From IMG/VR virus record IMGVR_UViG_3300009147_000001, positions 46,164 to 110,163 of that record: a DNA stretch of 64,000 nucleotides; one strand, written 5' to 3'. This DNA is from a virus. A program made the translations under genes and the position numbers. Position 1 is the first letter of the stretch; every line of letters begins with the position of its first letter. Positions 42,915-62,730 of the stretch are shown in pieces. The notes beneath the pieces were generated by a model, which was not told the DNA's origin, made no database searches, and saw nothing but the letters and a program-made list of their open reading frames with translations.

Positions 42915-44391
42915 TGTGTATACAAGGTGCTATATAGCCCTATGTGGTCTATATAGTGCCTTCCGTACATATAAGGCAATTCGCGCAATTCTGTCCAATT
43001 GGCCAATTCTGGGTCAATTGGCCAAAATGAGGATAAATCTGCGGGGGCCTTCGTCATAGCCTCGCTGCCCCACAGCAGGGGTGGCTCAGGGTAAATATCC
43101 CCGACATCCACTAAACTACACACAAAGGATAAAACGACAGTGGAATACGAAAAGCACCGTAATGCTCAGGTTGACAGTAATGGTAATAACACCAAGTTTG
43201 CCGCCAAAAAGCGTAAGCGCCGTCGCCGTACCACACTCACCCCGGAGGCCATCTCGCGGCTATCCAACCGTGGTCCTGATCTTGACTCGCGCACTGCTGG
43301 CACCTCGTTCATTTGGTGACAGATTACCGTCATAAGCTGCTGACAAGATCGTGATGCATCAACCAACACTGATAAAGAATCCTATTAGTTGGGAGTAAAA
43401 ACAAATAAAAACAGGGGACAAATCACCCAAAACCGGGACAAGCGTGGACTTTGTTGCTCATGATCTTTTTGGGTACTCTTCCAGGAGCGCGATATTCCTG
43501 TGAGAACAAAACCGACATCTCGGTCTTTTTGATTTCGAGAATCAGTCCAAAACGGACAAATCGTCTCGTAAGGGATGTTAATTCGTAGGCGAGAAAACGC
43601 GTACCTTCGTCCAAAGCAGGGGAACAGACTCTTTCAGAATATGATGGTTTGTCCTGTGACGCACTTCACAAGATCACAAGCCATCCAGGAATCGGGACAA
43701 TTCGGACATTCTAGACATTTCACCCGATATCTAGACAAACCACCACGAAAGCCACGTAAAACATCACCCTCCCCTAACAACCCCGCCCCCCTCACCACGA
43801 AAAGGTCCGCAGATCCACATATCCGCAACTAAGGGTAACTAAAGTCCTATTTAAATAGGGACAAAATAGGACATACTAGGCGTGGGAGCGCTTCCAATGA
43901 CAGTTTATTGACTGACGGATTAGCTTCTTATCCGATAATATTCGCTGTCTACTCATCCGTTCGTACTAAGCATACCTACCCGAAAGTGAGTGGATCTCTC
44001 CTGTTGGATGAATAGATCACCTACTCTTGCCGTTTATCCGCTAACACATTAATTGTCAACACATCCAAATCAGACCCCACATGCAGCTCATCCCTCACAA
44101 TCCATTCACTACAATAAGTACTGTTTATTTTTAAACACCAACATCATCCGTTCGGAGGATGTCAAGATACTTAAGATAACGTTTATTCCCTGACACATTG
44201 ACCGTTCCCTATTAACTTGTCGATCCCTATCAATTTCCACCTGCGGCGCGCGGTGCCTGCCTGTGGGGGTCTGTCATGTCCCGCAGGGCCTCATGGATAG
44301 ACTTATATCGAACTAACCGTGCGTTCGTTGGGCCAGAGCCTGATGGCACCCAACCTCGTTTTTCCTTTTCTCACTGAGTCCTGTTTGGTCA

Positions 44392-53454: not shown

Positions 53455-54677
53455 TCATATTTTTCCTCATATTGTTCACTATTCTCGGTGGTATAATTGG
53501 ATGGGTCCTCAAAGGACTATACGATGAACTCCACGAAGAAGATTGAATGTGGCCGCTCAGTCAACAAGTCCTAGGACTTTGATAGTATATCTTCTCCGAA
53601 GATATGCTGTCATGGTGTTATGGATAAGGGGAGATTATGGCAAGGCTGAGTAATAATGCAGTGGGTACGCTTAATAATCTTCGAGTATGGTGTACCCACT
53701 GCGGTCGTAAGTGTGGCACATTTGCCAGAGGGTCAACTAAGTTGTATGGAAGTTGGGTCTGCTATCCAAATGTAGCCGGTGAATTGAACTGCTATGATTT
53801 GGTACTCAATCATGGCCACGCCGCTGACTCCTGTGGTCAGTGTTGGACAGATGAGGAGAAGCCGCCACCGCCAAAAATTAGAACAGCAGAGACCAGTCCA
53901 TTTAGTTAGAATGACAATATTTTTGAGGAACAATGACGAATAATATTGTTGATGATATTCAGGTAAAGATCCTCCATAATGGCGAATTCGATACAAACGT
54001 ACATATTATTGTTGATGCGAGTACGGTGATTCATGTACTCAATGAGCATAAGGTTGAGATACAGGTGCCATTTTTGCTCATACGCAGGATTGTCTTTGAA
54101 TATTTAAGGCAGACAGCAATTAATGAAATACGTGCCATGGACGATGATGATTTTCAGGGTATTTTCTTGGGTATTTAGCGATTTGTCCCTCATGTCCGAT
54201 ACATCCTTTATAGCTGATCATGAATATCTATAGCGCGCTGACCAGCCAAAATGCCAATTGCTTCAATTGCTTGACAGTCCTGGCAGCACCGGCTACAGTG
54301 GAGAGCGTTGGCGGGCACGCTGGACACCGAGACTTGTCAACTACACAGGATTTGACGAACATTACCTCGCTCACTGCGGCCGGTAATGAGTGGGTTCCTG
54401 GTGAACCTCGTGGCGCCCGGAGTGTTTTGTCCTTTTGGCTTCGCGAGCGACACGGGAAATGTATCTGGACCCCTTTCCAAGGGGTTTTCTGTCCGTTTCC
54501 CTCTTGGGTATGGCGCGAAGATACAATGTTCACAGTCCGACACACTAATCTACGGTAGTGTGCTGCTAAGGGATTTACTGTTCCTACGGACAAAACAGTA
54601 GACGTCTGGCTTAGTATGAGCACTAAGCCCGGCATATGGTCAGCCCCACCATAAGACACAACGGGGCACTTACCTGA

Positions 54678-54778
54678 GGGGATGACAGGGTAAGAGCTGA
54701 GACGTGTCATATAGTACACACTATACGAGGAATGAGCCTTCGGATCAGCTAACCGCCGTTCGATTCGGCGCATCTCCA
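54678..54778 (+). ncRNA. Mini tmRNA-like RNA (tRNA-like domain only)
   Basis: GGGGATG/CATCTCC acceptor with G3.U70 and A73, no D stem, AGCTGA/TCAGCT helix, T arm CGCCG-TTCGATT-CGGCG. Confidence 0.65.
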
Positions 54779-54861
54779 CGAGGTTGCGCGATCCAACCAA
54801 TAAAAGTTCGGTGAAGGACAGGTGAAGGACACACTATAACAAATGTCCATGATCGCTTAAT

Positions 54862-54933
54862 TCTCGCATAGTTTAATAGGCAGAACGCTGCGCTCTGGAC
54901 GCAGAGGTTATAGTTCGAATCTATGTGCGAGAG
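54862..54933 (+). tRNA. tRNA-Gln(CTG)
   Basis: Full cloverleaf, AC arm CTGCG-CTCTGGA-CGCAG. Confidence 0.9.
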
Positions 54934-54935
54934 CT

Positions 54936-55006
54936 GATGTGGGTCGATAGTAATTGGTTATCTTCTTATAACAGGTTAGGCCGATTGCTGATAACATATC
55001 CACATC
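54936..55006 (+). ncRNA. Y RNA-like scaffold E1 (short cargo, CTTATAA loop)
   Basis: GATGTGG/CCACATC stem, GGGTCGA, GGTTAT, CATATCC. Confidence 0.75.
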
Positions 55007-55016
55007 GTGAGAGTTG

Positions 55017-55085
55017 GTTCGGGTCGAAGATAATCGGTTATCTCACTGCAAATGACACGCCGATCATCAATCATTATATCCGAAC
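55017..55085 (+). ncRNA. Y RNA-like scaffold E2 (Cys-GCA anticodon-like hairpin cargo)
   Basis: GTTCGG/CCGAAC stem, GGGTCGAAG, cargo TCA-CTGCAAA-TGA. Confidence 0.78.
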
Positions 55086-55424
55086 GACCACGTCTACATC
55101 CAGTTGAGAAGCTAAGCACACACGTACTCCGGTGTAGACATATATGTTCCCATCCATACGGCCGAGAATACAACATGTCCCTCCCGATGGGAACTAAAGC
55201 TTTCTCCATCCTACACGAGCGCGATCACCAAGAAGGGACCGATGGAGAAGGAAATTCAGCACGGTCATGGCAGAGATTCATCGAACTACTATCGTCCCAT
55301 CGCATGACCGTGATGGTGGCCTTATCAAATAGGGTGTTTATTATCCAAGCCACGCCCATATGGTCACTGTAGTATGTGGTTGTGTCATACTTGACGCAAT
55401 AATCATAGTTCAACCACACAACCA

Positions 55425-55630
55425 CATACTTTATCATGATCCTGTCACCAACCGAACGTGGCCCAACCCACCCATACACGATCATGATAAAGTATGATAA
55501 TAATTACGCCAAAGACCAATCAGTAAACTATGTCATGCACGTGTAATTATTATCATACTTTATCATGATCACATCATCTGCGGAGCGTAAACCAAAACCA
55601 TTCCATGCGATCATGATAAAGTATGATAAT
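55425..55630. repeat. Four 17-bp cores (CATACTTTATCATGATC) in alternating orientation
   Basis: 55425-55441 fwd, 55480-55496 rev, 55554-55570 fwd, 55609-55625 rev. Confidence 0.92.
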
Positions 55631-55702
55631 GATTTCACCAAGTCTTGTGCATACACCAAACGCAGCCGGTGACACTGTTATTCGTAAGGGAGAACGTGGA
55701 AC

Positions 55703-55846
55703 ATGAGCAACGACGAGGAACGTCTCAAGAAGGTTATTGCGGATAAGGTGGCAGAGGATAAACGTCGAGCCGCAGAAAAACTAGCTGCGGATCAGGCTGA
55801 GCAACGGCTGCATGAGGAAGAACGTCGTCAGCGCAACAAAGAGTAG
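55703..55846 (+). CDS. 47-aa charged helical protein
   Basis: Own translation MSNDEERLKKVIADKVAEDKRRAAEK...; GGGAG RBS. Confidence 0.6.
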   Translation: MSNDEERLKKVIADKVAEDKRRAAEKLAADQAEQRLHEEERRQRNKE

Positions 55847-55855
55847 TTCGCGGTT

Positions 55856-55929
55856 AGCGGGATGGCGCAGGTCGGTAGCGCGCGGGGCTCATAACCCCGA
55901 GGTCATGGGTTCGAATCCCATTCCCGCAA
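55856..55929 (+). tRNA. tRNA-fMet(CAT)
   Basis: 1:72 mismatch, GGG/CCC anticodon stem, CTCATAA loop. Confidence 0.9.
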
Positions 55930-56095
55930 CGTGACGCATAGCTTGGGTTTCGGTTTTTGGTGACGATATCCGAGGCAATCAGCGCATTTATATTGCGGTA
56001 AACCTAGATTGTTGAAATTATGAGGAACCATGTTTAATATCAGCGTGGTATCGTGGACGCTGGTGTGTGGCGCAAACTACGTAAGAAGGTGAGGT

Positions 56096-56416
56096 ATTAA
56101 ACCTGATAGACGTAGACGTCGAGAACAATTAGAAGGTGGCGCTAGCGTCACCAGGGCACAGCTTGATCGTATATATGTCAGAGACAACGGAATCTGTCAG
56201 ATATGCCACGAGCCGTGCGCACGTGAGGATGCCTCGCGTGATCACATCAAGGAAGTGAGATACTGTTCTCGTCAAGAAGCACGAAGTGACAAAAATGTCC
56301 AACTCGCACACAAAGAATGTAATGGACGTCGAGAACGACAATACTTTGATGAATTAGCAACAAAAGGTATGGACCAACTCTTACGGGAGTTGGGCGATCG
56401 GTATCGTAAATACTAG
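56096..56416 (+). CDS. HNH endonuclease, apparent ATT start
   Basis: Own translation ...RDNGICQICHEP...SRDHIKE...NVQLAHKECN...; in-frame TGA directly upstream. Confidence 0.75.
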   Translation: MKPDRRRRREQLEGGASVTRAQLDRIYVRDNGICQICHEPCAREDASRDHIKEVRYCSRQEARSDKNVQLAHKECNGRRERQYFDELATKGMDQLLRELGDRYRKY

Positions 56417-56503
56417 ATGTGGAGGATCGCATGACGGAGCCAACCACACCGGTGGAGCCAACACCAGACGAGCCGGAAAGTGGTCCGGACGAGTAAGACA
56501 CGA

Positions 56504-56637
56504 GTTGTTTTGGGTCGAATGGTATCGGTTATCATATTATCAGTTCGATTCTGAATACTCGCTCCTCACGGATGGCGAGTACTTACACCTAGTGTAAGGG
56601 AATTGTTACCGATAGCAGCTCACATATCCAAAACAAC
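56504..56637 (+). ncRNA. Y RNA-like scaffold E3 (YrlA-type T arm + closed acceptor cargo)
   Basis: 10-bp outer stem; TCAG-TTCGATT-CTGA then TACTCGCT/GGCGAGTA hairpin. Confidence 0.8.
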
Positions 56638-56707
56638 CACAGTATGTTATAGGATCAACTCCGAGACGTGTCAACTACACAAGACATGGGCCATCCTATA
56701 ACATAAC

Positions 56708-56782
56708 GTCTTCGTAGCCCAATATGGTAGAGGCACAGCCTTGAGGTGGCTGACAGTGCAGGTTCGAACCCTGTCGAAGGCA
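56708..56782 (+). tRNA. tRNA-Leu(GAG), short variable loop
   Basis: CAGCC-TTGAGGT-GGCTG. Confidence 0.85.
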
Positions 56783-56876
56783 CGCGGACATAAAAAAGGT
56801 TGGCAGTGACACAAAAGTCCGACACGTGGATCGTATGCCACCGCTGTTGACAAAAAATAACGTGGAACTGCCACTA

Positions 56877-56924
56877 TGGTTTCCTCATTCCTTGGTTTCC
56901 TCATTCCTTGGTTTCCTCATTCCT
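56877..56924. repeat. 16-bp tandem repeat x3 (TGGTTTCCTCATTCCT)
   Basis: Seen directly. Confidence 0.9.
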
Positions 56925-56950
56925 GAAAAATGAGGTGGTGGACTGGGTTG

Positions 56951-57023
56951 GATTCGGGTCGGAAGATATTGGTTATCCTACCACTTTGGAATCAATCCGA
57001 TATCATTATTACACATCCGAATC
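56951..57023 (+). ncRNA. Y RNA-like scaffold E4 (short cargo containing CTTTGGA)
   Basis: GATTCGG/CCGAATC and GATATTGG/CCGATATC stems. Confidence 0.75.
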
Positions 57024-57069
57024 TATCATATGTTTCCTCGTTTTCTTAAAACGAGGTGGTGGAGGCGGC

Positions 57070-57145
57070 AGGTTCGGGTCGAACGTAGATCGGTTATCTT
57101 TGAAAGAAGAGTAAATGCCCGATCTACATCAATATATCCGAACCT
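57070..57145 (+). ncRNA. Y RNA-like scaffold E5 (short cargo)
   Basis: AGGTTCGG/CCGAACCT and GTAGATCGG/CCGATCTAC stems. Confidence 0.78.
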
Positions 57146-57177
57146 TAACAATAAGTGAATGCACGATATCCGAGTAA

Positions 57178-57252
57178 TTGGGTCGAAGATAATTGGTTAT
57201 CCACCCGAGCTAGTCTAGCGCATGGACCAATTATCATAGTGTGTTCTTCCGA
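57178..57252 (+). ncRNA. Y RNA-like scaffold E6 (degenerate 3' motif)
   Basis: GGGTCGAAG, GATAATTGG/CCAATTATC stem, GGTTAT. Confidence 0.65.
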
Positions 57253-57329
57253 CGAGAGCTAGACGCGAAAGGAGTGATCATCATGATCTACCGACGTTAG
57301 CCCACGGTGGGCTGACCGGAAAGGTCACG

Positions 57330-57611
57330 ATGTCACGCACCGATGTTCATCGACCATGGCACGTTCAGATTAATGATCCGTACAATCGCCACATTCTGTA
57401 CCGATATCCTGGTCTTTATAGTGAAATGATGGTAACATCATTCAAGAATATCGGTTGTGGCTGTGCCTTATGTACAGGTACGTTCTTCCGTCGACACGCG
57501 CGTAGACAAGAGCGAGTGCAATGGAGGACGGCTAAACGGGACATACTTAAATGCCAGGCCGCTGACCGTGAGCATATAGATGTACCGCTGATCCGCGGTA
57601 ATGCCTGGTAA
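57330..57611 (+). CDS. Basic hypothetical protein with CGCxxC motif
   Basis: MSRTD.HRP...CGCALC; GAAAGG RBS. Confidence 0.65.
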   Translation: MSRTDVHRPWHVQINDPYNRHILYRYPGLYSEMMVTSFKNIGCGCALCTGTFFRRHARRQERVQWRTAKRDILKCQAADREHIDVPLIRGNAW

Positions 57612-57619
57612 CTTATTTG

Positions 57620-57800
57620 ATTCGGGTCGAAGACACGTTGATTATCGGATCCTGGGGAATCATACCCCAACGCTAGGTTTATTGTATAGTGGGAGATTAA
57701 GACATCGTCCTGAAAAACCACGACAATAAACTGCCTTTCTCTCCTTGCGGCATGGAAAAGTGACGCGGGAAATATTCGACTGTCAATCATACATCCGAAT
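57620..57800 (+). ncRNA. Y RNA-like scaffold E7 (~130-nt structured cargo)
   Basis: ATTCGG/CCGAAT stem, GGGTCGAAG, GATTAT variant, TACATCC; internal GTTTATTGT/ACAATAAAC stem. Confidence 0.68.
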
Positions 57801-57817
57801 TTCATAAAAGGAGTACT

Positions 57818-58453
57818 ATGACGACCCATGTCATTATGGTTGTTGACAAGTCTGGTTCAATGTATCATCTTACCAGCGATATTATTGGTGGGTTCAATCA
57901 ATACATAGATGAACTGAAAGCCCAATCGGATATTGAGTTTCGGTTTACCGTAACCTTATTTGATACGACTTACACATCACTGTGTGTCAATACTCCCATT
58001 GCTGAGGTACCAAAACTTACTCGGGAAAACTATAAGGCTTCGGGTAATACCGCTCTTATCGATGCCGTGGGCAAATCTATACGAGATTTTGATGTGGCCA
58101 CGCCAGAACTAGCCGACAACGACAAAGTACTTCTCGTGGTTCAGACGGATGGTTATGAAAATTCATCTACTGAATATAAGAACACTGATATCGAGAAGAT
58201 GATTTCTGAGCGCGAAGCTACTGGCAAATGGGGATTCGTTTTCCTTGGCGCTGGACCAGATGTCTGGGATCACGCGCATAGAATGGGTTTCAATACTGTA
58301 TCCTCGACAACGCAATCTGGTTCGGCTACCCGCACGCGGTATGGTAAGATGTCCGGTGCTACTATAGCTATGGCTAGCAGTGGGGCACCGGTAGCAGAGT
58401 CCTCCATTGATTGGATGGAACAGGTCGTCGAAGACGACCCTGACGGCAAGTGA
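57818..58453 (+). CDS. Stand-alone vWA domain protein
   Basis: MIDAS DKSGS, GNTALIDA, QTDGYEN, FLGA. Confidence 0.9.
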   Translation: MTTHVIMVVDKSGSMYHLTSDIIGGFNQYIDELKAQSDIEFRFTVTLFDTTYTSLCVNTPIAEVPKLTRENYKASGNTALIDAVGKSIRDFDVATPELADNDKVLLVVQTDGYENSSTEYKNTDIEKMISEREATGKWGFVFLGAGPDVWDHAHRMGFNTVSSTTQSGSATRTRYGKMSGATIAMASSGAPVAESSIDWMEQVVEDDPDGK

Positions 58454-58460
58454 GGCATAC

Positions 58461-58736
58461 ATGGACTATATTGCAGCAGGTAGCCCGTCGGACACCCTGC
58501 TGCAATATGGTGCCATCGGTGCCATTGCGTTGTTGGCATTATTAGCAGTATACAAGTTGTTTCAACGACAAATACAGCAACATGAACGTGACATTGCCAG
58601 GGCTGATAAGGCCGAGGAGCAACTAGCTACACTGAATACTCTCATTCGAGATCAGCTAGTCGTTCAATTAACACGTGCCACCGACTCTATCAGTCGAGTC
58701 GCTGAATTACTCAGAGACGAAGCACGAGGTCGGTAA
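58461..58736 (+). CDS. Single-TM coiled-coil membrane protein (holin-like)
   Basis: QYGAIGAIALLALLAVY followed by coiled coil. Confidence 0.5.
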   Translation: MDYIAAGSPSDTLLQYGAIGAIALLALLAVYKLFQRQIQQHERDIARADKAEEQLATLNTLIRDQLVVQLTRATDSISRVAELLRDEARGR

Positions 58737-58887
58737 ATGATCAAGGATCGGGTCAAGACCGAGGATATTATAGAAGAGTCTACCGATGCTATCAATATGC
58801 TCAAACGGTTGGTGAGCCGATTAGAAGTGTATACAGATCAGTTAGAGCGGGAATTGGCTCTCAAGATCGAATCACAGGAGGACTCGA

Positions 58888-59403
58888 ATGGAAAATGACG
58901 GGCTTGCTGAGCAAGCCCGAGAGTTACGGTCGGGGATTAATGAGTTAAATCTAGCGATAATAGCATTAAGTAACAGAATTGCCCTCTCTGAAGAACTAGC
59001 CAACCGATTAAAGCTGATAGTGCGTGGACTAATTGCTAGTTTTATATGTGGCATTATCGTGGTTGGCTATCTTATAGCAGAGAAGGTGGGCGATGACCGA
59101 TATGTTAAATGTCAAGCACACTTCAACGAAATTTCTAGTATTCGCGACAGAATTATCAATGAAGTATCTGACGATGAGCGTAAGGCTGAACGTGCGCGTA
59201 GTAGCGCATTAGACGCCACATTCTTAGATCCATCTTTACTTAAGCCGGTTGATAAAAGGACTCCGGCTGATACGAAGCGCGTAATTGATCTTTTTATCGC
59301 TTATCGTGAAGCAGCAGAGCGACTCAGAATAGAAGAAAAGAAGGCAGACGAGGCGAGGGCGGCAAATCCTATTCCACCATTACCGTCTGATCTCTGTGGG
59401 TAG
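58888..59403 (+). CDS. Membrane-anchored helical protein
   Basis: One TM; GGAGG RBS. Confidence 0.55.
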   Translation: MENDGLAEQARELRSGINELNLAIIALSNRIALSEELANRLKLIVRGLIASFICGIIVVGYLIAEKVGDDRYVKCQAHFNEISSIRDRIINEVSDDERKAERARSSALDATFLDPSLLKPVDKRTPADTKRVIDLFIAYREAAERLRIEEKKADEARAANPIPPLPSDLCG

Positions 59404-59407
59404 ACAG

Positions 59408-59545
59408 TCCTTCGGGTCGAACGTGATTTGGTTATCTCCTTTTAAGAGAGTGGTTGCAGGTTCGAGTCCTGTCAGGCCCACAATGGGTCTGTAGCTCAAT
59501 GGGCAGAGCACTAAAAACCCGAATTACATCAATATATCTGAAGGA
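59408..59545 (+). ncRNA. Scaffold E8 carrying circularly permuted tRNA-Lys(TTT)
   Basis: 3' half 59436-59480 precedes 5' half 59485-59512. Confidence 0.85.
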
Positions 59546-59935
59546 ACTATATCATGAAACATGATCTTATCATGGAAGAATATCCGTACTTCTCCACTCC
59601 CATGGTGTACGTTGCTATCTGCTCCTGCGGGAGATATGAATCTGGTAATCGGACTAGTCGAATAGACGCAGAGAAATCGTGGCTTGAACACAAGCGAGCA
59701 AAAGAGTCTCCTCATGATTCATGAACAATACTGCTACGGTGCACATACCGATGATCTCACGTGTGAAGAAGTACGAGAACTACGGCAGAGTGCTACCAAT
59801 GACATACGATACTGCCATTACAATCCACGTTCGGCCTATCATAGGTTTGCCGGGGAGAATCCATCTCCGACCGATAGTTGTACGTATAATGGATGTTCAG
59901 TAACGTGGGCAGAGTTTGCTGAATTATAGATGTCT

Positions 59936-60004
59936 GGTACGGGTCGGATTGTTTCGGTTATCTAATGGGTAGAGTTAAACCGATACCTTTTTCATATCCG
60001 TACC
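59936..60004 (+). ncRNA. Y RNA-like scaffold E9 (D-loop-like cargo CTAATGGGTAGAG)
   Basis: GGTACGG/CCGTACC stem, GGTTAT, CATATCC. Confidence 0.72.
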
Positions 60005-60066
60005 GCTTAACCTCCCCGGGAGCGGAGGGAACAGGATGGAATAGTCTAGAAAGCTATTCCATTCTT

Positions 60067-60139
60067 GCCGACGTGCGCTAACGGCAAAGCGATGCGATTT
60101 AGGATTGCATGAATGGGGGTTCGACTCCCTCCGTCGGTA
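60067..60139 (+). tRNA. tRNA-Leu(TAG), short variable loop
   Basis: TGCGA-TTTAGGA-TTGCA. Confidence 0.85.
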
Positions 60140-60193
60140 CGCTAGCCTGGTCATTGCCTTACCAGCAACCAGGTCCACCCCACCAGGCAGCAT

Positions 60194-60266
60194 GCCCTTG
60201 TAGCTCAACGGATAGAGCGCTAGATTACGGATCTAGGTGTTGCAGGTTCGAATCCTGTCAAGGGTA
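60194..60266 (+). tRNA. tRNA-Arg(ACG)
   Basis: CTAGA-TTACGGA-TCTAG. Confidence 0.92.
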
Positions 60267-60267
60267 C

Positions 60268-60405
60268 GTGGGTAAAACAACAGGTGCATGTCCAACATGC
60301 GGCAAGAACCATTCACCATTTTGTGGTAGTAAACCAGATAGCCAAAAACCACAACCAGGACCATGCGCCAAATGTGGACGACTGCATTATCCACCATGTG
60401 ATTAG
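60268..60405 (+). CDS. 45-aa protein with two CxxCxxxHxxxC zinc-knuckle-like motifs
   Basis: CPTCGKNHSPFC and CAKCGRLHYPPC; GTG start right after tRNA-Arg. Confidence 0.55.
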   Translation: MGKTTGACPTCGKNHSPFCGSKPDSQKPQPGPCAKCGRLHYPPCD

Positions 60406-60412
60406 TTTATAT

Positions 60413-60553
60413 GTGAACGGGTCGACAGTGATTGGTTATCATCAAGCTCATAACTTGAAGGTGCAGGTTCGACTCCTGCCTCCGCTACCATGGCGGAGTG
60501 GTGTAATGGCAGCATAATAAAAGTATCCGATTGCGACCAATACATCCGTTCAT
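60413..60553 (+). ncRNA. Scaffold E10 carrying circularly permuted tRNA(CAT)
   Basis: 3' half 60440-60490 (with CCA) precedes 5' half 60492-60514. Confidence 0.85.
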
Positions 60554-60557
60554 CAAT

Positions 60558-60631
60558 GCGGGGACCGAAAATCAGCCTAGCGATGATGATTAGGTAGGTA
60601 TGCTTGAGAGGTTCAATTCCTCTCCCCCGCT
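60558..60631 (+). ncRNA. Degenerate tRNA-like element (acceptor + T arm, no D stem)
   Basis: GCGGGG/CCCCGC and GAGAGG-TTCAATT-CCTCTC. Confidence 0.5.
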
Positions 60632-60972
60632 CAATGGTGTCGAGTACGCATCTGTATGGCAACGTCGCTGCACACGTTAGTTCATATCGAACGAGCCTTG
60701 CCGCGTGCAGCCGAGGTCTCGTTTAGTACTCACCATACGTGGGATATAGGCGTTAACGAATCTAAAAGGTACGTTACAGCCATCGAGCAGGTTCGAAGGT
60801 GTGGCCATGATCCGGGACCTCCTTTCACCCATATGGGGAGCCACGCCTGCGCCTATATCCTATGAATAGGTCAGTGCTACGACTGTTAATCGTCAACACT
60901 GTCAATCGGATGCCAGTCCGAGTGCCCCAATAGTACAATAACTACTGGCATAGTTATTGGTGCGGGGTATCT

Positions 60973-61047
60973 AGGAGTGTAGCTCAGAGGTCAGAGCGCG
61001 AGGTCCGCATAACTTCGAGGTCATAGGTTCGAATCCTATCATTCCTA
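60973..61047 (+). tRNA. tRNA-like gene with 9-nt anticodon loop (TCCGCATAA)
   Basis: Canonical acceptor, D and T arms; AC stem CGAGG/CTTCG. Confidence 0.75.
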
Positions 61048-61075
61048 CGCTAATGTAGTTTCTTACCAAGGAGAT

Positions 61076-61306
61076 GTGTTGAATATCGAGCCCAATGGCC
61101 TTAGAGTAGATCTGTCTCAGGCTGCGTGGCAGAAGTCTTCAAAGTCAGGTCCGTATTCAGATAATTGCGTGGAAGTGGCTTTTGTCGACGGTGCCATTGC
61201 CATGCGGCACTCGAAGAATCCGACGGGTCCAACACTCATTTTCACACAGGGTGAATGGGACGCCTTCATAGCAGGAGCCCGTGATGGAGAGTTCGACCTG
61301 GCATAA
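61076..61306 (+). CDS. DUF397 protein
   Basis: WQKSSKS..NCVEVA..MRHSKNP..L.F..EWDAF. Confidence 0.92.
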   Translation: MLNIEPNGLRVDLSQAAWQKSSKSGPYSDNCVEVAFVDGAIAMRHSKNPTGPTLIFTQGEWDAFIAGARDGEFDLA

Positions 61307-61577
61307 GAGTAGTCATAGTGCCGTCACTGATCAATGCCTCGAAGTACAGTGGCATAAAAGCAGTCATAGCCAACAAGGTAGTGGTAACTGTTTAGAGACA
61401 ACTTTTAAAAAGAGCAGCTACAGTTCTATCCACAATTGTCTTGAAGCAGCTCTGCCAGATGGTACTATCCTCGTACGAGATTCCAAGAATCCTAATGGTG
61501 GAATATTGGAGTTTTCTCCGCAATCATGGGTGAACTTCTTGGGAGGTGTGAGGAATGATGAGTTCAATCTGGCGTAA
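61281..61577 (+). CDS. DUF397 protein with triplicated N-terminal motif
   Basis: Three (W/F)xKSSxS..CLE units then VRDSKNP. Confidence 0.9.
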   Translation: MMESSTWHKSSHSAVTDQCLEVQWHKSSHSQQGSGNCLETTFKKSSYSSIHNCLEAALPDGTILVRDSKNPNGGILEFSPQSWVNFLGGVRNDEFNLA

Positions 61578-61791
61578 AAGTACCTACTGTTCTACTAGCT
61601 GCGGTGAGTGTCTGGAAGCAAGCTTTCAGAAAAGTAGTTACAGTCAAGGTAACGGCAATTGCTTAGAAGCTGCTCTACCTGATGGGACAGTGCTCGTCAG
61701 AGACTCCAAGAATGTCGACGGTGGCGTTCTGGAATTTTCTCCACGTTCCTGGAATGACTTTCTTTATGCAATAAAGAACAACGAGTTCTGA
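61555..61791 (+). CDS. DUF397 protein with duplicated N-terminal motif
   Basis: Two (W/F)xKS(S/T)Y..CLE units then VRDSKN. Confidence 0.9.
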   Translation: MMSSIWRKSTYCSTSCGECLEASFQKSSYSQGNGNCLEAALPDGTVLVRDSKNVDGGVLEFSPRSWNDFLYAIKNNEF

Positions 61792-61796
61792 GTAAT

Positions 61797-61932
61797 TCAT
61801 GACGGGTCGATCGGATGACGGTTATTAGTGGGGTAGTGTAAGAATAACACACCAGATTCCAACTCTGGAAATGAACAGTGAGATGCTGTTCCCCTACTGC
61901 CATCCGTTATTCACCGAATATATCCGTCATGA
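61797..61932 (+). ncRNA. Scaffold E11 enclosing an unpermuted tRNA-Trp
   Basis: TCATGACGG/CCGTCATGA and GGATGACGG/CCGTTATTC stems. Confidence 0.8.
61827..61902 (+). tRNA. tRNA-Trp(CCA), non-canonical D and T loops, encoded CCA
   Basis: AGTGGGG/CCCTACT, CCAGA-TTCCAAC-TCTGG, G73 + CCA. Confidence 0.75.
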
Positions 61933-61935
61933 CCT

Positions 61936-62006
61936 GCCGTTGTAGCTTAGTGGTAAAGCCTCTGTTTTCCAAACAGATGACGAGGGTTCGATTCCCTTCA
62001 ACGGTT
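61936..62006 (+). tRNA. tRNA-Gly(TCC)
   Basis: TCTGT-TTTCCAA-ACAGA, U73. Confidence 0.9.
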
Positions 62007-62130
62007 CGGGGAGTCCAATATAGAAGTGCGCAGATTACCCCCGTTATCAGTGCCACTGTATTGGACTCTCTGATGAGAACCTAAATGAAACGTTAGGAAG
62101 AGGCGTTGACAGGGCATTTAGGTTCTCTTC

Positions 62131-62202
62131 GTCGATGTGGTGTAAGGGTTGCACGACACCACGCCAAGGTGTAGGCTGTGGGTTCGAATCCCATCATCGG
62201 CT
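62131..62202 (+). tRNA. tRNA-Gly(GCC), unusual C33
   Basis: ACACC-ACGCCAA-GGTGT, U73. Confidence 0.85.
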
Positions 62203-62446
62203 CGGCGCTAGGGTGGTGTGCACACCACAGACCAGATATGGGAGCACCTGACCTAGCCAGTGTGCTTCGTTGATCCTTAGTGTGTTGAATCGAATGTGAG
62301 TTCCACATTCTGTGACACTACTAAGGTTCCGTCCACCTCCGATTCGGCTCACGGTCGGAATAAAGGTAATGATGTGGTGGTATTAGCGCAAATACCACTA
62401 TACGGACACTCCTGGTGTACACTGGAGTCAAAGAAGTGAGCCACCG

Positions 62447-62519
62447 GGAGCCATAGACTAAAAGGAAGGTCTCCGCTCTTTCAAAGCGGAAGGTACGGGT
62501 TCAAGCCCCGTTGGCTCTA
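62447..62519 (+). tRNA. tRNA-Glu(TTC)
   Basis: CCGCT-CTTTCAA-AGCGG. Confidence 0.88.
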
Positions 62520-62730
62520 CTGTCGAGTGGTGATTAGCTTAGTGTCAGCCGTCGTCATTGTTGGCCTCAAACGAGGCGCGTTAATTACCACTCGACCAAA
62601 ACGTCAGATAGCAACACGATGACTTCTCTCGGCCGAGTAAGTGGTGGGCGACTCCTATCCATGATCACGGGTTCATCCACTTCGGAGTGTTGCTATCTGA
62701 CCCATAGATACTCACAGACAGGACAAAGCC

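What the first reader, a model, noticed from the sequence alone, without database searches (positions are those of the whole stretch)
54678..54778. 101-nt tmRNA-like RNA lacking a tag-coding domain
Seen: acceptor GGGGATG/CATCTCC-A with G3.U70 (AlaRS determinant), a stemless D region, helix AGCTGA/TCAGCT in the P2a position, a 3-nt AAC linker and a canonical T arm. Only ~44 nt lie inside, where tmRNA has ~250 or more. Known: tag-less tmRNA-like RNAs occur in some protist mitochondria. Inference: an alanylated SmpB sponge that blocks trans-translation, or a tag-free ribosome-rescue RNA.
Basis: partly seen in the sequence, partly recalled or inferred. Interest (0 to 1): 0.7.

Follow-up and report, generated by a model that had tools for sequence, protein, structure and literature searches.

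The report
Divergent tag-less tmRNA-like phage RNA
An uncultured 110-kb soil phage carries a 101-base RNA gene shaped like the alanine-accepting head of the bacterial ribosome-rescue RNA (tmRNA) with no coding part. This kind is already known from mycobacteriophage DS6A and is common in phages, but this copy is an unusually divergent one with no relatives found.

Summary
The element has a 7-bp acceptor stem with G3:U70 and A73, a 10-nt D region without a stem, the helix AGCTGA/TCAGCT, an AAC linker, a canonical T arm, and 44 nt inside. It sits at the head of the phage's tRNA array.

An acceptor-plus-T-arm frame like this is expected 0.15 times per shuffled window. ARAGORN finds nothing here, and neither do the Rfam tmRNA, mt-tmRNA or tRNA models.

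I built a model from ten 90-120-nt phage mini-tmRNAs, leaving the window out. It scores the element at 43.9 bits. The published DS6A "TLD-only" tmRNA scores 49.7, E. coli tRNA-Ala 20.3, and the window's own tRNAs 16 or less.

The element has A8, as tmRNA does, where all nine of the phage's tRNAs that ARAGORN calls in this array have U8. However, its D loop reads more like a tRNA's GGTAGAGC than the tmRNA UUCGAC motif, and the 3' half of the conserved GA/GA pair is missing.

I found no homologue in 24 related phage records or in the viral, metagenome and genome collections, so covariation could not be tested.

Best reading (confidence about 0.5): a divergent tag-less tmRNA mimic that is alanylated and competes for host SmpB. 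No step of that function is shown. This scan has already found the same kind of RNA on DNA of at least 191 other genomes. Interest is modest.

The parts
54678..54684 (+). Acceptor stem, 5' strand GGGGATG (G1-G7); G3 pairs with T70
54685..54694 (+). Stemless D-like joining region ACAGGGTAAG (A8-G17). It has A8, a GG(G) run for the T-loop contact, and G17 followed by A18, which correspond to tmRNA 19-GA-20.
   Evidence: The 10-13 nt range of this region in tmRNAs is from PMC1168896.
54695..54700 (+). Helix 2a analogue, 5' strand AGCTGA (A18-A23)
54701..54744 (+). Inner 44 nt in place of the mRNA-like and pseudoknot domains. It is predicted to form two small hairpins: TATAGT-ACAC-ACTATA at 54710-25, and GAGG-AATGAG-CCTT at 54727-40. 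There is no plausible tag frame.
   Evidence: fold; frames read directly
54745..54750 (+). Helix 2a analogue, 3' strand TCAGCT (T68-T73)
54751..54753 (+). Linker AAC (canonical tmRNA has GAC here). The same AAC occurs in mini-tmRNA L040.
54754..54770 (+). T arm CGCCG-TTCGATT-CGGCG
54771..54778 (+). Acceptor 3' strand CATCTCC plus discriminator A73. The trailer starts with CG, as it does after 7 of the 10 tRNAs of the array. CCA is not encoded.

Best explanation
The element is a phage gene for a tag-less mimic of the tmRNA tRNA-like domain (a 'TLD-only mini-tmRNA'). It is the kind first noted in mycobacteriophage DS6A, here in a divergent 101-nt form with a branched 44-nt insert on helix 2a.

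Proposed mechanism (every step is inferred, none is shown):
1. It is transcribed with the phage's tRNA array.
2. Its 5' leader is cut off by RNase P and its 3' trailer is removed after A73, as for the neighbouring CCA-less tRNAs.
3. The host adds CCA.
4. AlaRS charges it because of G3:U70 and A73.
5. Lacking an anticodon, it can engage ribosomes only through host SmpB. With no resume codon or stop codon, it competes with host tmRNA for SmpB (and for EF-Tu and stalled ribosomes), which lowers ssrA tagging and trans-translation during infection.
For: - The anatomy is exact and not due to chance.
- Model R2, built from ten phage mini-tmRNAs without the window, hits exactly 54678-54778 at 43.9 bits (E about 1e-8). 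DS6A's published TLD-only tmRNA, which my search patterns did not select, scores 49.7. E. coli tRNA-Ala scores 20.3 and the window's tRNAs score 16 or less.
- The element has A8, which is the tmRNA rule. All nine tRNAs that ARAGORN calls in the array have T8.
- The joining region of 10-11 nt lies within the 10-13 nt range known for tmRNA (PMC1168896).
- Each deviation from the consensus is seen in other phage mini-tmRNAs that do reach Rfam RF00023. The AAC linker occurs in L040. An A-U pair plus an AC linker, in place of GA/GGAC, occurs in L042, L047, L051 and L052. TTAGA or TATCGA D loops occur in L007-L010 and L046.
- It lies at the head of a tRNA array on the same strand, with the same CG start of the trailer and no encoded CCA, as for the phage's tRNAs.
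- The phage has its own normal tRNA-Ala(TGC) elsewhere, so this is an extra gene and not the phage's tRNA-Ala.
- Published precedent: the DS6A TLD-only form, and a similar molecule that strongly inhibits tmRNA whether or not it can be charged (PMC4131195, PMC11915505).
- The phage encodes no SmpB of its own, so any partner would be the host's.
Against: - RF00023, mt-tmRNA, RF00005 and ARAGORN all fail to detect it.
- R2's seed sequences were collected with a pattern the window also satisfies, so part of the 43.9 bits is circular. R2's own alignment also deletes four D-loop positions and mispairs two of the four helix-2a pairs.
- The 3' GA of the functionally confirmed 19-GA-20/333-GA-334 motif is absent; TA/AA stands there instead.
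- GGGTAAGAGC fits the tRNA D-arm motif GGTAGAGC with one inserted base better than it fits GGUUUCGAC. CTGA/TCAG also echoes the anticodon stem of the phage's own tRNA-Ala. The element may therefore be a remodelled tRNA rather than a tmRNA descendant.
- No homologue was found in any searched collection, so helix 2a and the inner hairpins have no covariation support.
Confidence: 0.5

Rival explanations
1. The element is a remodelled tRNA-Ala derivative that only converges on the tmRNA head shape. It would belong to this phage's large set of tRNA mimics and act on something other than SmpB. It might be a decoy or competitor for AlaRS, RNase P, modification enzymes or EF-Tu; a processing punctuation mark at the start of the RNA island; or an anticodon-less alanyl donor.
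For: - The phage encodes Ro60.
- The D region GGGTAAGAGC and the stem CTGA/TCAG resemble the D arm and anticodon stem of the phage's own tRNA-Ala.
- A related phage (G002, portal 59% identical) has a different 95-nt tRNA-like RNA with a G3:U70/A73 acceptor in its tRNA array. It has two hairpins in cloverleaf positions and no helix 2a.
- Rfam tmRNA models fail on the element.
Against: - The element lacks the shared Y-RNA scaffold GGGTCGA...GGTTATC.
- It has A8 rather than the T8 of all nine ARAGORN-called tRNAs in the array.
- Its acceptor and T arm differ from the tRNA-Ala genes of this phage and of three relatives.
- The two bases after the old anticodon stem now pair with the old D-stem strand to make one continuous 6-bp helix, which is the tmRNA layout.
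- It scores 23.6 bits above E. coli tRNA-Ala on the mini-tmRNA model.
Confidence: 0.27
2. The identity is the same (tag-less TLD), but the element is a helper rather than an inhibitor. Ala-RNA with SmpB enters stalled ribosomes and accepts the nascent chain. Host factors then release the peptidyl-RNA, freeing ribosomes without marking phage proteins for proteolysis.
For: - CDS-less tmRNAs persist together with SmpB in jakobid mitochondria and in some plastids, where they are thought to help with incomplete mRNAs (PMC11915505).
- Intact Ala identity elements and an EF-Tu-compatible 12-bp acceptor/T stack are kept in the element.
Against: - The phage has no peptidyl-tRNA hydrolase, no RF-1/ArfB-type release domain and no SmpB that could complete such a cycle.
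- The one experimental precedent reported inhibition of tmRNA, independent of charging (PMC4131195).
Confidence: 0.12
3. The element is a decaying tRNA pseudogene, or a tRNA interrupted by an insertion, with no function of its own.
For: - It is an orphan sequence with no homologue found.
- No D stem or anticodon loop is present, and tRNA finders reject it.
Against: - The acceptor stem (7 bp), T arm (5 bp with a canonical loop) and the 6-bp replacement helix are all perfect.
- The fold is more stable than shuffles (z = -2.8).
- The sequence is identical in a second rhizosphere sample from another study.
- At 44 nt the insert is much shorter than bacterial tRNA introns, which by general knowledge are group I introns of 200 nt or more, and no 7-nt anticodon loop can be restored by removing any block.
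Confidence: 0.08

Closest known systems
'TLD only' tmRNA of Mycobacterium phage DS6A (tmRNA Website tmID 11587 / Phage__Mycobacterium.9; JN698994:28478-28557; PMC4131195, PMC11915505, citing Mao et al. 2009)
   Same: - Phage-encoded.
- G3:U70/A73 acceptor, stemless D region, helix 2a and T arm.
- No tag frame and no pseudoknots.
- Below the Rfam gathering score (DS6A scores 43.2 bits against a cut-off of 47).
- Similar score on my family model (49.7 against 43.9).
   Different: - DS6A is 80 nt, with helix 2a simply capped. It keeps GGUCGAC in the D loop, and CAC before its T stem where canonical tmRNA has GAC.
- The window's RNA is 101 nt with a branched 44-nt insert, a GGGUAAGAG D loop and an AAC linker, and it gets no RF00023 hit at all.
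Mid-size (89-124 nt) mini-tmRNAs in IMG/VR phage contigs (L004-L010, L038-L052; found here)
   Same: - Same size class and same overall plan.
- Several lie beside phage tRNA genes (L004, L007, L008, L010).
- Several share the window's acceptor GGGGATG/CATCTCC.
- Some lack GGAC (AAC in L040; AC in L042, L047, L051 and L052).
   Different: - Of the seven that were run through Rfam (L004-L010), six reach RF00023 at 67-76 bits and L007 at 44.6. All 22 keep a D loop of the TTCGA, TTAGA or TATCGA type.
- None is a sequence homologue of the window's inner domain.
Bacterial tmRNA tRNA-like domain (Rfam RF00023, clan CL00001)
   Same: - Acceptor identity set and A8.
- GG...GA in a stemless 10-13-nt joining region.
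- Helix 2a in the anticodon-stem position, and a T arm.
   Different: - No mRNA-like domain, resume codon, stop codon or pseudoknots.
- The 3' GA of the tandem G-A motif is missing.
- The conserved C21 is replaced by G19, which pairs with C72.
CDS-less organellar tmRNAs (jakobid mitochondria; about 65-bp Mallomonadaceae plastid genes; PMC11915505)
   Same: tmRNA reduced to the tRNA-like part, with no tag frame.
   Different: - These are organellar and act with an imported SmpB.
- No Rfam mt-tmRNA hit was obtained here.
- The window's RNA keeps a 44-nt structured insert.
YrlA-type Y RNAs with tRNA-like heads (Rfam RF02553), present in quantity in this same phage
   Same: tRNA mimicry by a phage small RNA in the same RNA island.
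   Different: - Y RNAs close their ends in a Ro60-binding stem and display a closed tRNA-like head.
- This element has free acceptor ends and lacks the scaffold repeat.
- It gives no RF02553 hit.

Membership tests
tmRNA (Rfam RF00023 / ARAGORN definition) | Acceptor stem with G3:U70 and discriminator A73 (AlaRS identity) | tested here: met
   GGGGATG/CATCTCC followed by A
tmRNA (Rfam RF00023 / ARAGORN definition) | No D stem; a 10-13-nt single strand between helix 1 and helix 2a that carries GG and GA | tested here: met
   10 nt (11 if A18 is left unpaired), with GGG and G17-A18. The range is from PMC1168896.
tmRNA (Rfam RF00023 / ARAGORN definition) | Tandem non-Watson-Crick pairs 19-GA-20 / 333-GA-334 and the conserved C21 | tested here: not met
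   The 5' GA is present, but the 3' side reads T73-A74-A75-C76 with no GA. G19:C72 replaces C21:G..
tmRNA (Rfam RF00023 / ARAGORN definition) | mRNA-like domain with resume codon, tag frame and stop codon, plus pseudoknots | tested here: not met
   Only 44 nt lie inside. The frames give no plausible tag, and ARAGORN finds none.
tmRNA (Rfam RF00023 / ARAGORN definition) | Reaches the curated covariance-model score (47 bits) | tested here: not met
   No RF00023 hit at E <= 10. Only the 3' end matches beta_tmRNA, at 13 bits.
Phage TLD-only mini-tmRNA (DS6A type) | tmRNA TLD architecture without a coding domain, encoded by a phage | tested here: met
Phage TLD-only mini-tmRNA (DS6A type) | Recognised by a family model built without it, and scored above real tRNA-Ala | tested here: met
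   R2 gives 43.9 bits, against DS6A at 49.7, held-out members at 44.6-85, E. coli tRNA-Ala at 20.3 and the window's tRNAs at 16 or less. Caveat: the seeds were collected with a pattern that the window also fits.
Phage TLD-only mini-tmRNA (DS6A type) | Conserved D loop of the UUCGAC type and a (G)GAC linker | tested here: inconclusive
   The window has GUAAGAG and AAC. Each single deviation occurs in some member, but no member shows the combination.
Phage TLD-only mini-tmRNA (DS6A type) | Binds SmpB and inhibits trans-translation | not testable with these tools
   The complex predictor takes proteins and small ligands only. No RNA data exist for this phage.
tRNA (RF00005) | D stem, anticodon arm with a 7-nt loop, and U8 | tested here: not met
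   No RF00005 or ARAGORN hit. The element has A8, and no anticodon loop can be drawn.
Y RNA / YrlA (RF02553) of this phage's Ro60 system | Termini closed in the Ro60-binding stem; the shared scaffold GGGTCGA..GGTTATC | tested here: not met
   The scaffold copies start at 54941 and none lies in 54678-54778. No RF02553 hit.

The most novel reading that the evidence does not exclude
It may have re-invented the tmRNA head on its own from a tRNA-Ala gene, by losing the 5' D-stem strand and fusing the old D-stem 3' strand to the anticodon stem. The result would be an anticodon-less alanyl carrier. That would be a second, convergent origin of the TLD fold. The 95-nt Ala-type tRNA-like RNA in relative G002 would be a sister experiment.
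Probability: 0.2. Interest if true: 0.6.

Novelty: new variant of a known kind. Interest (0 to 1): 0.36.

Why it matters
Tag-less tmRNA heads in phages suggest that viruses manipulate bacterial ribosome rescue and protein tagging, a host-virus interface that has had almost no experimental study. This copy shows how far the sequence can drift: no Rfam or ARAGORN hit, no UUCGAC, no GGAC, and a branched insert, while the architecture is kept. That is useful for building better search models and for asking which TLD features SmpB and AlaRS really need. On its own it adds one divergent, orphan example to a kind that is already published (DS6A) and that this scan has met repeatedly.

Tried and rejected
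- **Close DNA relatives.** blastn against 50,697 phage records found nothing. The exact 5' 23-mer found nothing in viral contigs.
- **Neighbouring genes.** The upstream 112-aa ORF has no relative in viral contigs. Six neighbouring ORFs, including the 190-aa minus-strand ORF that overlaps the element, have no Pfam or PHROG family. That minus-strand ORF is probably spurious.
- **Single-sequence model R1.** A search of 24 related phage records (portal relatives and one Ro60 relative) matched only the element itself.
- **Metagenome scan.** A pattern tailored to the window's type gave one match, which lies inside an ordinary full-length tmRNA.
- **Genome-contig scans.** The 3' 25-mer found nothing. 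The second pattern also found nothing, but I set its gap too short for normal tmRNAs, so that result is uninformative.
- **RF00023 hits in relatives and in the own genome.** These turned out to be tRNAs or spans between tRNAs.
- **Sequencing runs.** No RNA holder is listed. Two rhizosphere DNA runs hold the stretch. The second is identical over 54480-54824, so it offers no natural variants to test pairing.
- **Promoter idea.** The 10-mer ACACACTATA occurs in the element and again 113 nt downstream, but it is not a genome-wide motif (8 matches with up to one mismatch, 4.2 expected). I dropped the idea.
- **Tag frames.** One frame gives MSLRIS* with its stop inside the linker, and another gives YTLYEE*. 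I rejected both as too short, and as lying within helix 2a or hairpin sequence.
- **Phage-encoded rescue or processing partners.** No SmpB, Pth, RF-1/ArfB or CCA-adding enzyme was found.
- **Complex prediction.** Not attempted, because the tool does not take RNA.

Full report
**Setting.** The window is the right-hand 64 kb of a complete 110,163-bp IMG/VR virus record with direct terminal repeats. It encodes a portal, a tape-measure protein, a split terminase and a protease typical of a siphovirus. Its portal is only 27-36% identical to those of cultured actinophages. The record holds 29 tRNA genes, including a normal tRNA-Ala(TGC) far from the element. It also encodes a Ro60 (TROVE) protein. 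Earlier notes of this scan describe an array of Ro60-type Y-RNA scaffolds with tRNA-like inserts starting at 54936. I confirmed the repeated scaffold. The element at 54678-54778 lies just upstream of tRNA-Gln (54862-54934) and of that array, on the same strand.

**The observation.**
- a 7-bp acceptor GGGGATG/CATCTCC with G3:T70, and discriminator A;
- a 10-nt stemless D region;
- a 6-bp helix AGCTGA/TCAGCT;
- the linker AAC;
- the T arm CGCCG-TTCGATT-CGGCG;
- 44 nt inside.

A scan for a perfect acceptor plus T-arm frame found 11 frames in the window: this element, frames at eight of its tRNA genes (one gene gave a second, longer frame), and one other frame. Dinucleotide shuffles averaged 0.15 frames. 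The minimum-energy fold is the tRNA-like shape (z = -2.8), and it persists in 303 nt of context. No tRNA of the array encodes CCA. Seven of the ten tRNAs, like the element, have a trailer that begins with CG straight after the discriminator. This suggests shared 3' processing.

**Standard tools.** ARAGORN calls no tmRNA here. Rfam gives no tmRNA, mt-tmRNA, tRNA or Y-RNA hit at E <= 10, even when the element is searched alone. Only the linker, T arm and acceptor 3' strand match beta_tmRNA, at 13 bits. By curated definitions the element is therefore neither a tmRNA nor a tRNA.

**What is known.** Hudson, Lau and Williams list mycobacteriophage DS6A as 'TLD only'. [quoted passage not shown] The 2025 tmRNA database paper repeats this and adds CDS-less plastid forms of about 65 bp (PMC11915505). 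I located the DS6A gene at JN698994:28478-28557. It too falls below Rfam's cut-off, at 43.2 bits against 47. This scan has also noted phage tag-less mini-tmRNAs many times before: 244 notes in at least 191 genomes.

**A family of the same size class.** Two gapped patterns run over IMG/VR returned 22 phage RNAs of 89-124 nt with the same plan. Some lie beside phage tRNAs (L004, L007, L008, L010). All seven from the first pattern hit RF00023, six at 67-76 bits and L007 at 44.6. Their helix 2a varies freely in sequence and length (4-16 bp) while staying paired. The family is more varied than the textbook TLD:
- L040 has the window's AAC linker;
- L042, L047, L051 and L052 pair the A of 'GA' with a U and keep only 'AC';
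- L007, L008 and L046 have TTAGA, and L009 and L010 have TATCGA, in the D loop;
- L007 carries a second, more divergent copy in tandem.

**Membership test.** I built model R2 from ten of these RNAs, without the window. Its scores are below.

| Sequence | R2 score (bits) |
|---|---|
| Window element, exactly 54678-54778 | 43.9 (E about 1e-8 over 185 kb) |
| Held-out family members | 44.6-85 |
| DS6A TLD-only tmRNA (not selected by my patterns) | 49.7 |
| E. coli tRNA-Ala | 20.3 |
| The window's own tRNAs | 16 or less |

There are two caveats. The seeds were gathered with a pattern that the window also satisfies. And R2's alignment of the window deletes four D-loop positions and mispairs two of the four helix-2a pairs, so the score rests mainly on the acceptor, GG, linker and T arm. 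One feature independent of my patterns is position 8. The element has A8, the tmRNA rule, while all nine tRNAs that ARAGORN calls in the array have T8.

**What does not fit.**
- The conserved tmRNA motif 19-GA-20/333-GA-334 (PMC1168896) is only half present. G17-A18 stand on the 5' side, but the 3' side reads T-A-A-C.
- GGGTAAGAGC matches the tRNA D-arm motif GGTAGAGC, with one extra base, better than it matches GGUUUCGAC. CTGA/TCAG also echoes the anticodon stem of the phage's own tRNA-Ala.
- The element could therefore be a tRNA-Ala that lost the 5' D-stem strand and whose old D-stem 3' strand now extends the anticodon stem into one 6-bp helix. That is the TLD layout, but possibly reached independently.
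- Its acceptor and T arm are unlike the tRNA-Ala genes of this phage and of three relatives.

**Search for homologues.** None was found:
- phage GenBank records;
- exact and gapped patterns in viral contigs;
- a single-sequence model over 24 related records;
- one metagenome scan;
- one informative genome-contig scan.

A second rhizosphere sample from another study holds the identical sequence. Helix 2a and the two inner hairpins therefore have no covariation support. A relative (G002) has a different 95-nt RNA in its tRNA array, with a G3:U70/A73 acceptor and a T arm but two hairpins in cloverleaf positions. This shows that the lineage makes other Ala-type tRNA mimics.

**Mechanism.** Shown here: the architecture and its genomic context. 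Inferred from established knowledge:
- G3:U70 with A73 on an accessible acceptor helix suffices for AlaRS;
- the 12-bp acceptor/T stack suits EF-Tu;
- an RNA without an anticodon can enter the A site only with SmpB;
- without a resume codon and a stop codon it cannot complete trans-translation.

The phage has no SmpB, Pth, RF-1/ArfB or CCA-adding enzyme, so all partners would be the host's. Competition for SmpB is the best-supported reading (0.5) because of the published precedent. The rivals are a tRNA-derived mimic with another target (0.27), tag-free rescue (0.12) and a dead relic (0.08).

**Verdict.** This is a real, probably functional RNA gene. It is a divergent, orphan variant of a kind that is already published and that this scan has found repeatedly. 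Its function is untested. Interest is modest.

Noticed in passing
G002:C1:43600-43694 (locus L065:1501-1595), + strand: A related 75.8-kb phage has a 95-nt RNA that ARAGORN does not call, right after tRNA-Asn. Its acceptor is GGGGACA/TGTCTCC with G3:T70 and A73, and it has a T arm TAGGG-TTCGAGT-CCCTA. Two long hairpins sit in the D-arm and anticodon-arm positions, and there is no helix 2a. It is another Ala-type tRNA mimic, of a different build.
   Followed up: partly
L007:4110-4225 and L007:4228-4309: Two mini-tmRNA-like genes lie in tandem, 2 nt apart. The first scores 58 bits and the second, more divergent one (82 nt, GGAAUG D loop, AAU linker) scores 41 bits on model R2.
   Followed up: partly
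window 54862-62520: None of the array's tRNAs encodes CCA, and in 7 of the 10 the trailer starts with CG immediately after the discriminator, as it does after the element. This may be a shared 3'-processing signal.
   Followed up: no
window 54716-54725 and 54829-54838: The exact 10-mer ACACACTATA occurs twice, 113 nt apart: once in the element's inner hairpin and once 24 nt upstream of tRNA-Gln. It is not a genome-wide motif.
   Followed up: partly
window 54670-54676 versus 54688-54694: The 5' leader CTTACCT is complementary to the D-loop GGGTAAG of the element (7 bp). The centroid fold of the precursor uses this pairing, which would mask the D loop until RNase P removes the leader.
   Followed up: no
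window 61076-61791: Three tandem DUF397 (PF04149) genes score 81-94 bits. As I recall it, this family is typical of Streptomyces-like actinomycetes, which would be a hint about the host.
   Followed up: partly
L004:10932-11017, - strand: A Pistol ribozyme (RF02679) match of 39.5 bits, above the gathering score of 34.5, in an unrelated phage contig that also carries a mini-tmRNA.
   Followed up: no
window 43467-43553, + strand: An 87-nt frame with a 7-bp acceptor-like stem (TTTTGGG/TCCAAAA) and a T-arm-like hairpin. No tool calls it, and it may be the one chance frame expected.
   Followed up: no
window 55537-55643: A long, near-perfect palindrome gives spurious plant miRNA-precursor hits on both strands (33.8-35 bits).
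   Followed up: no
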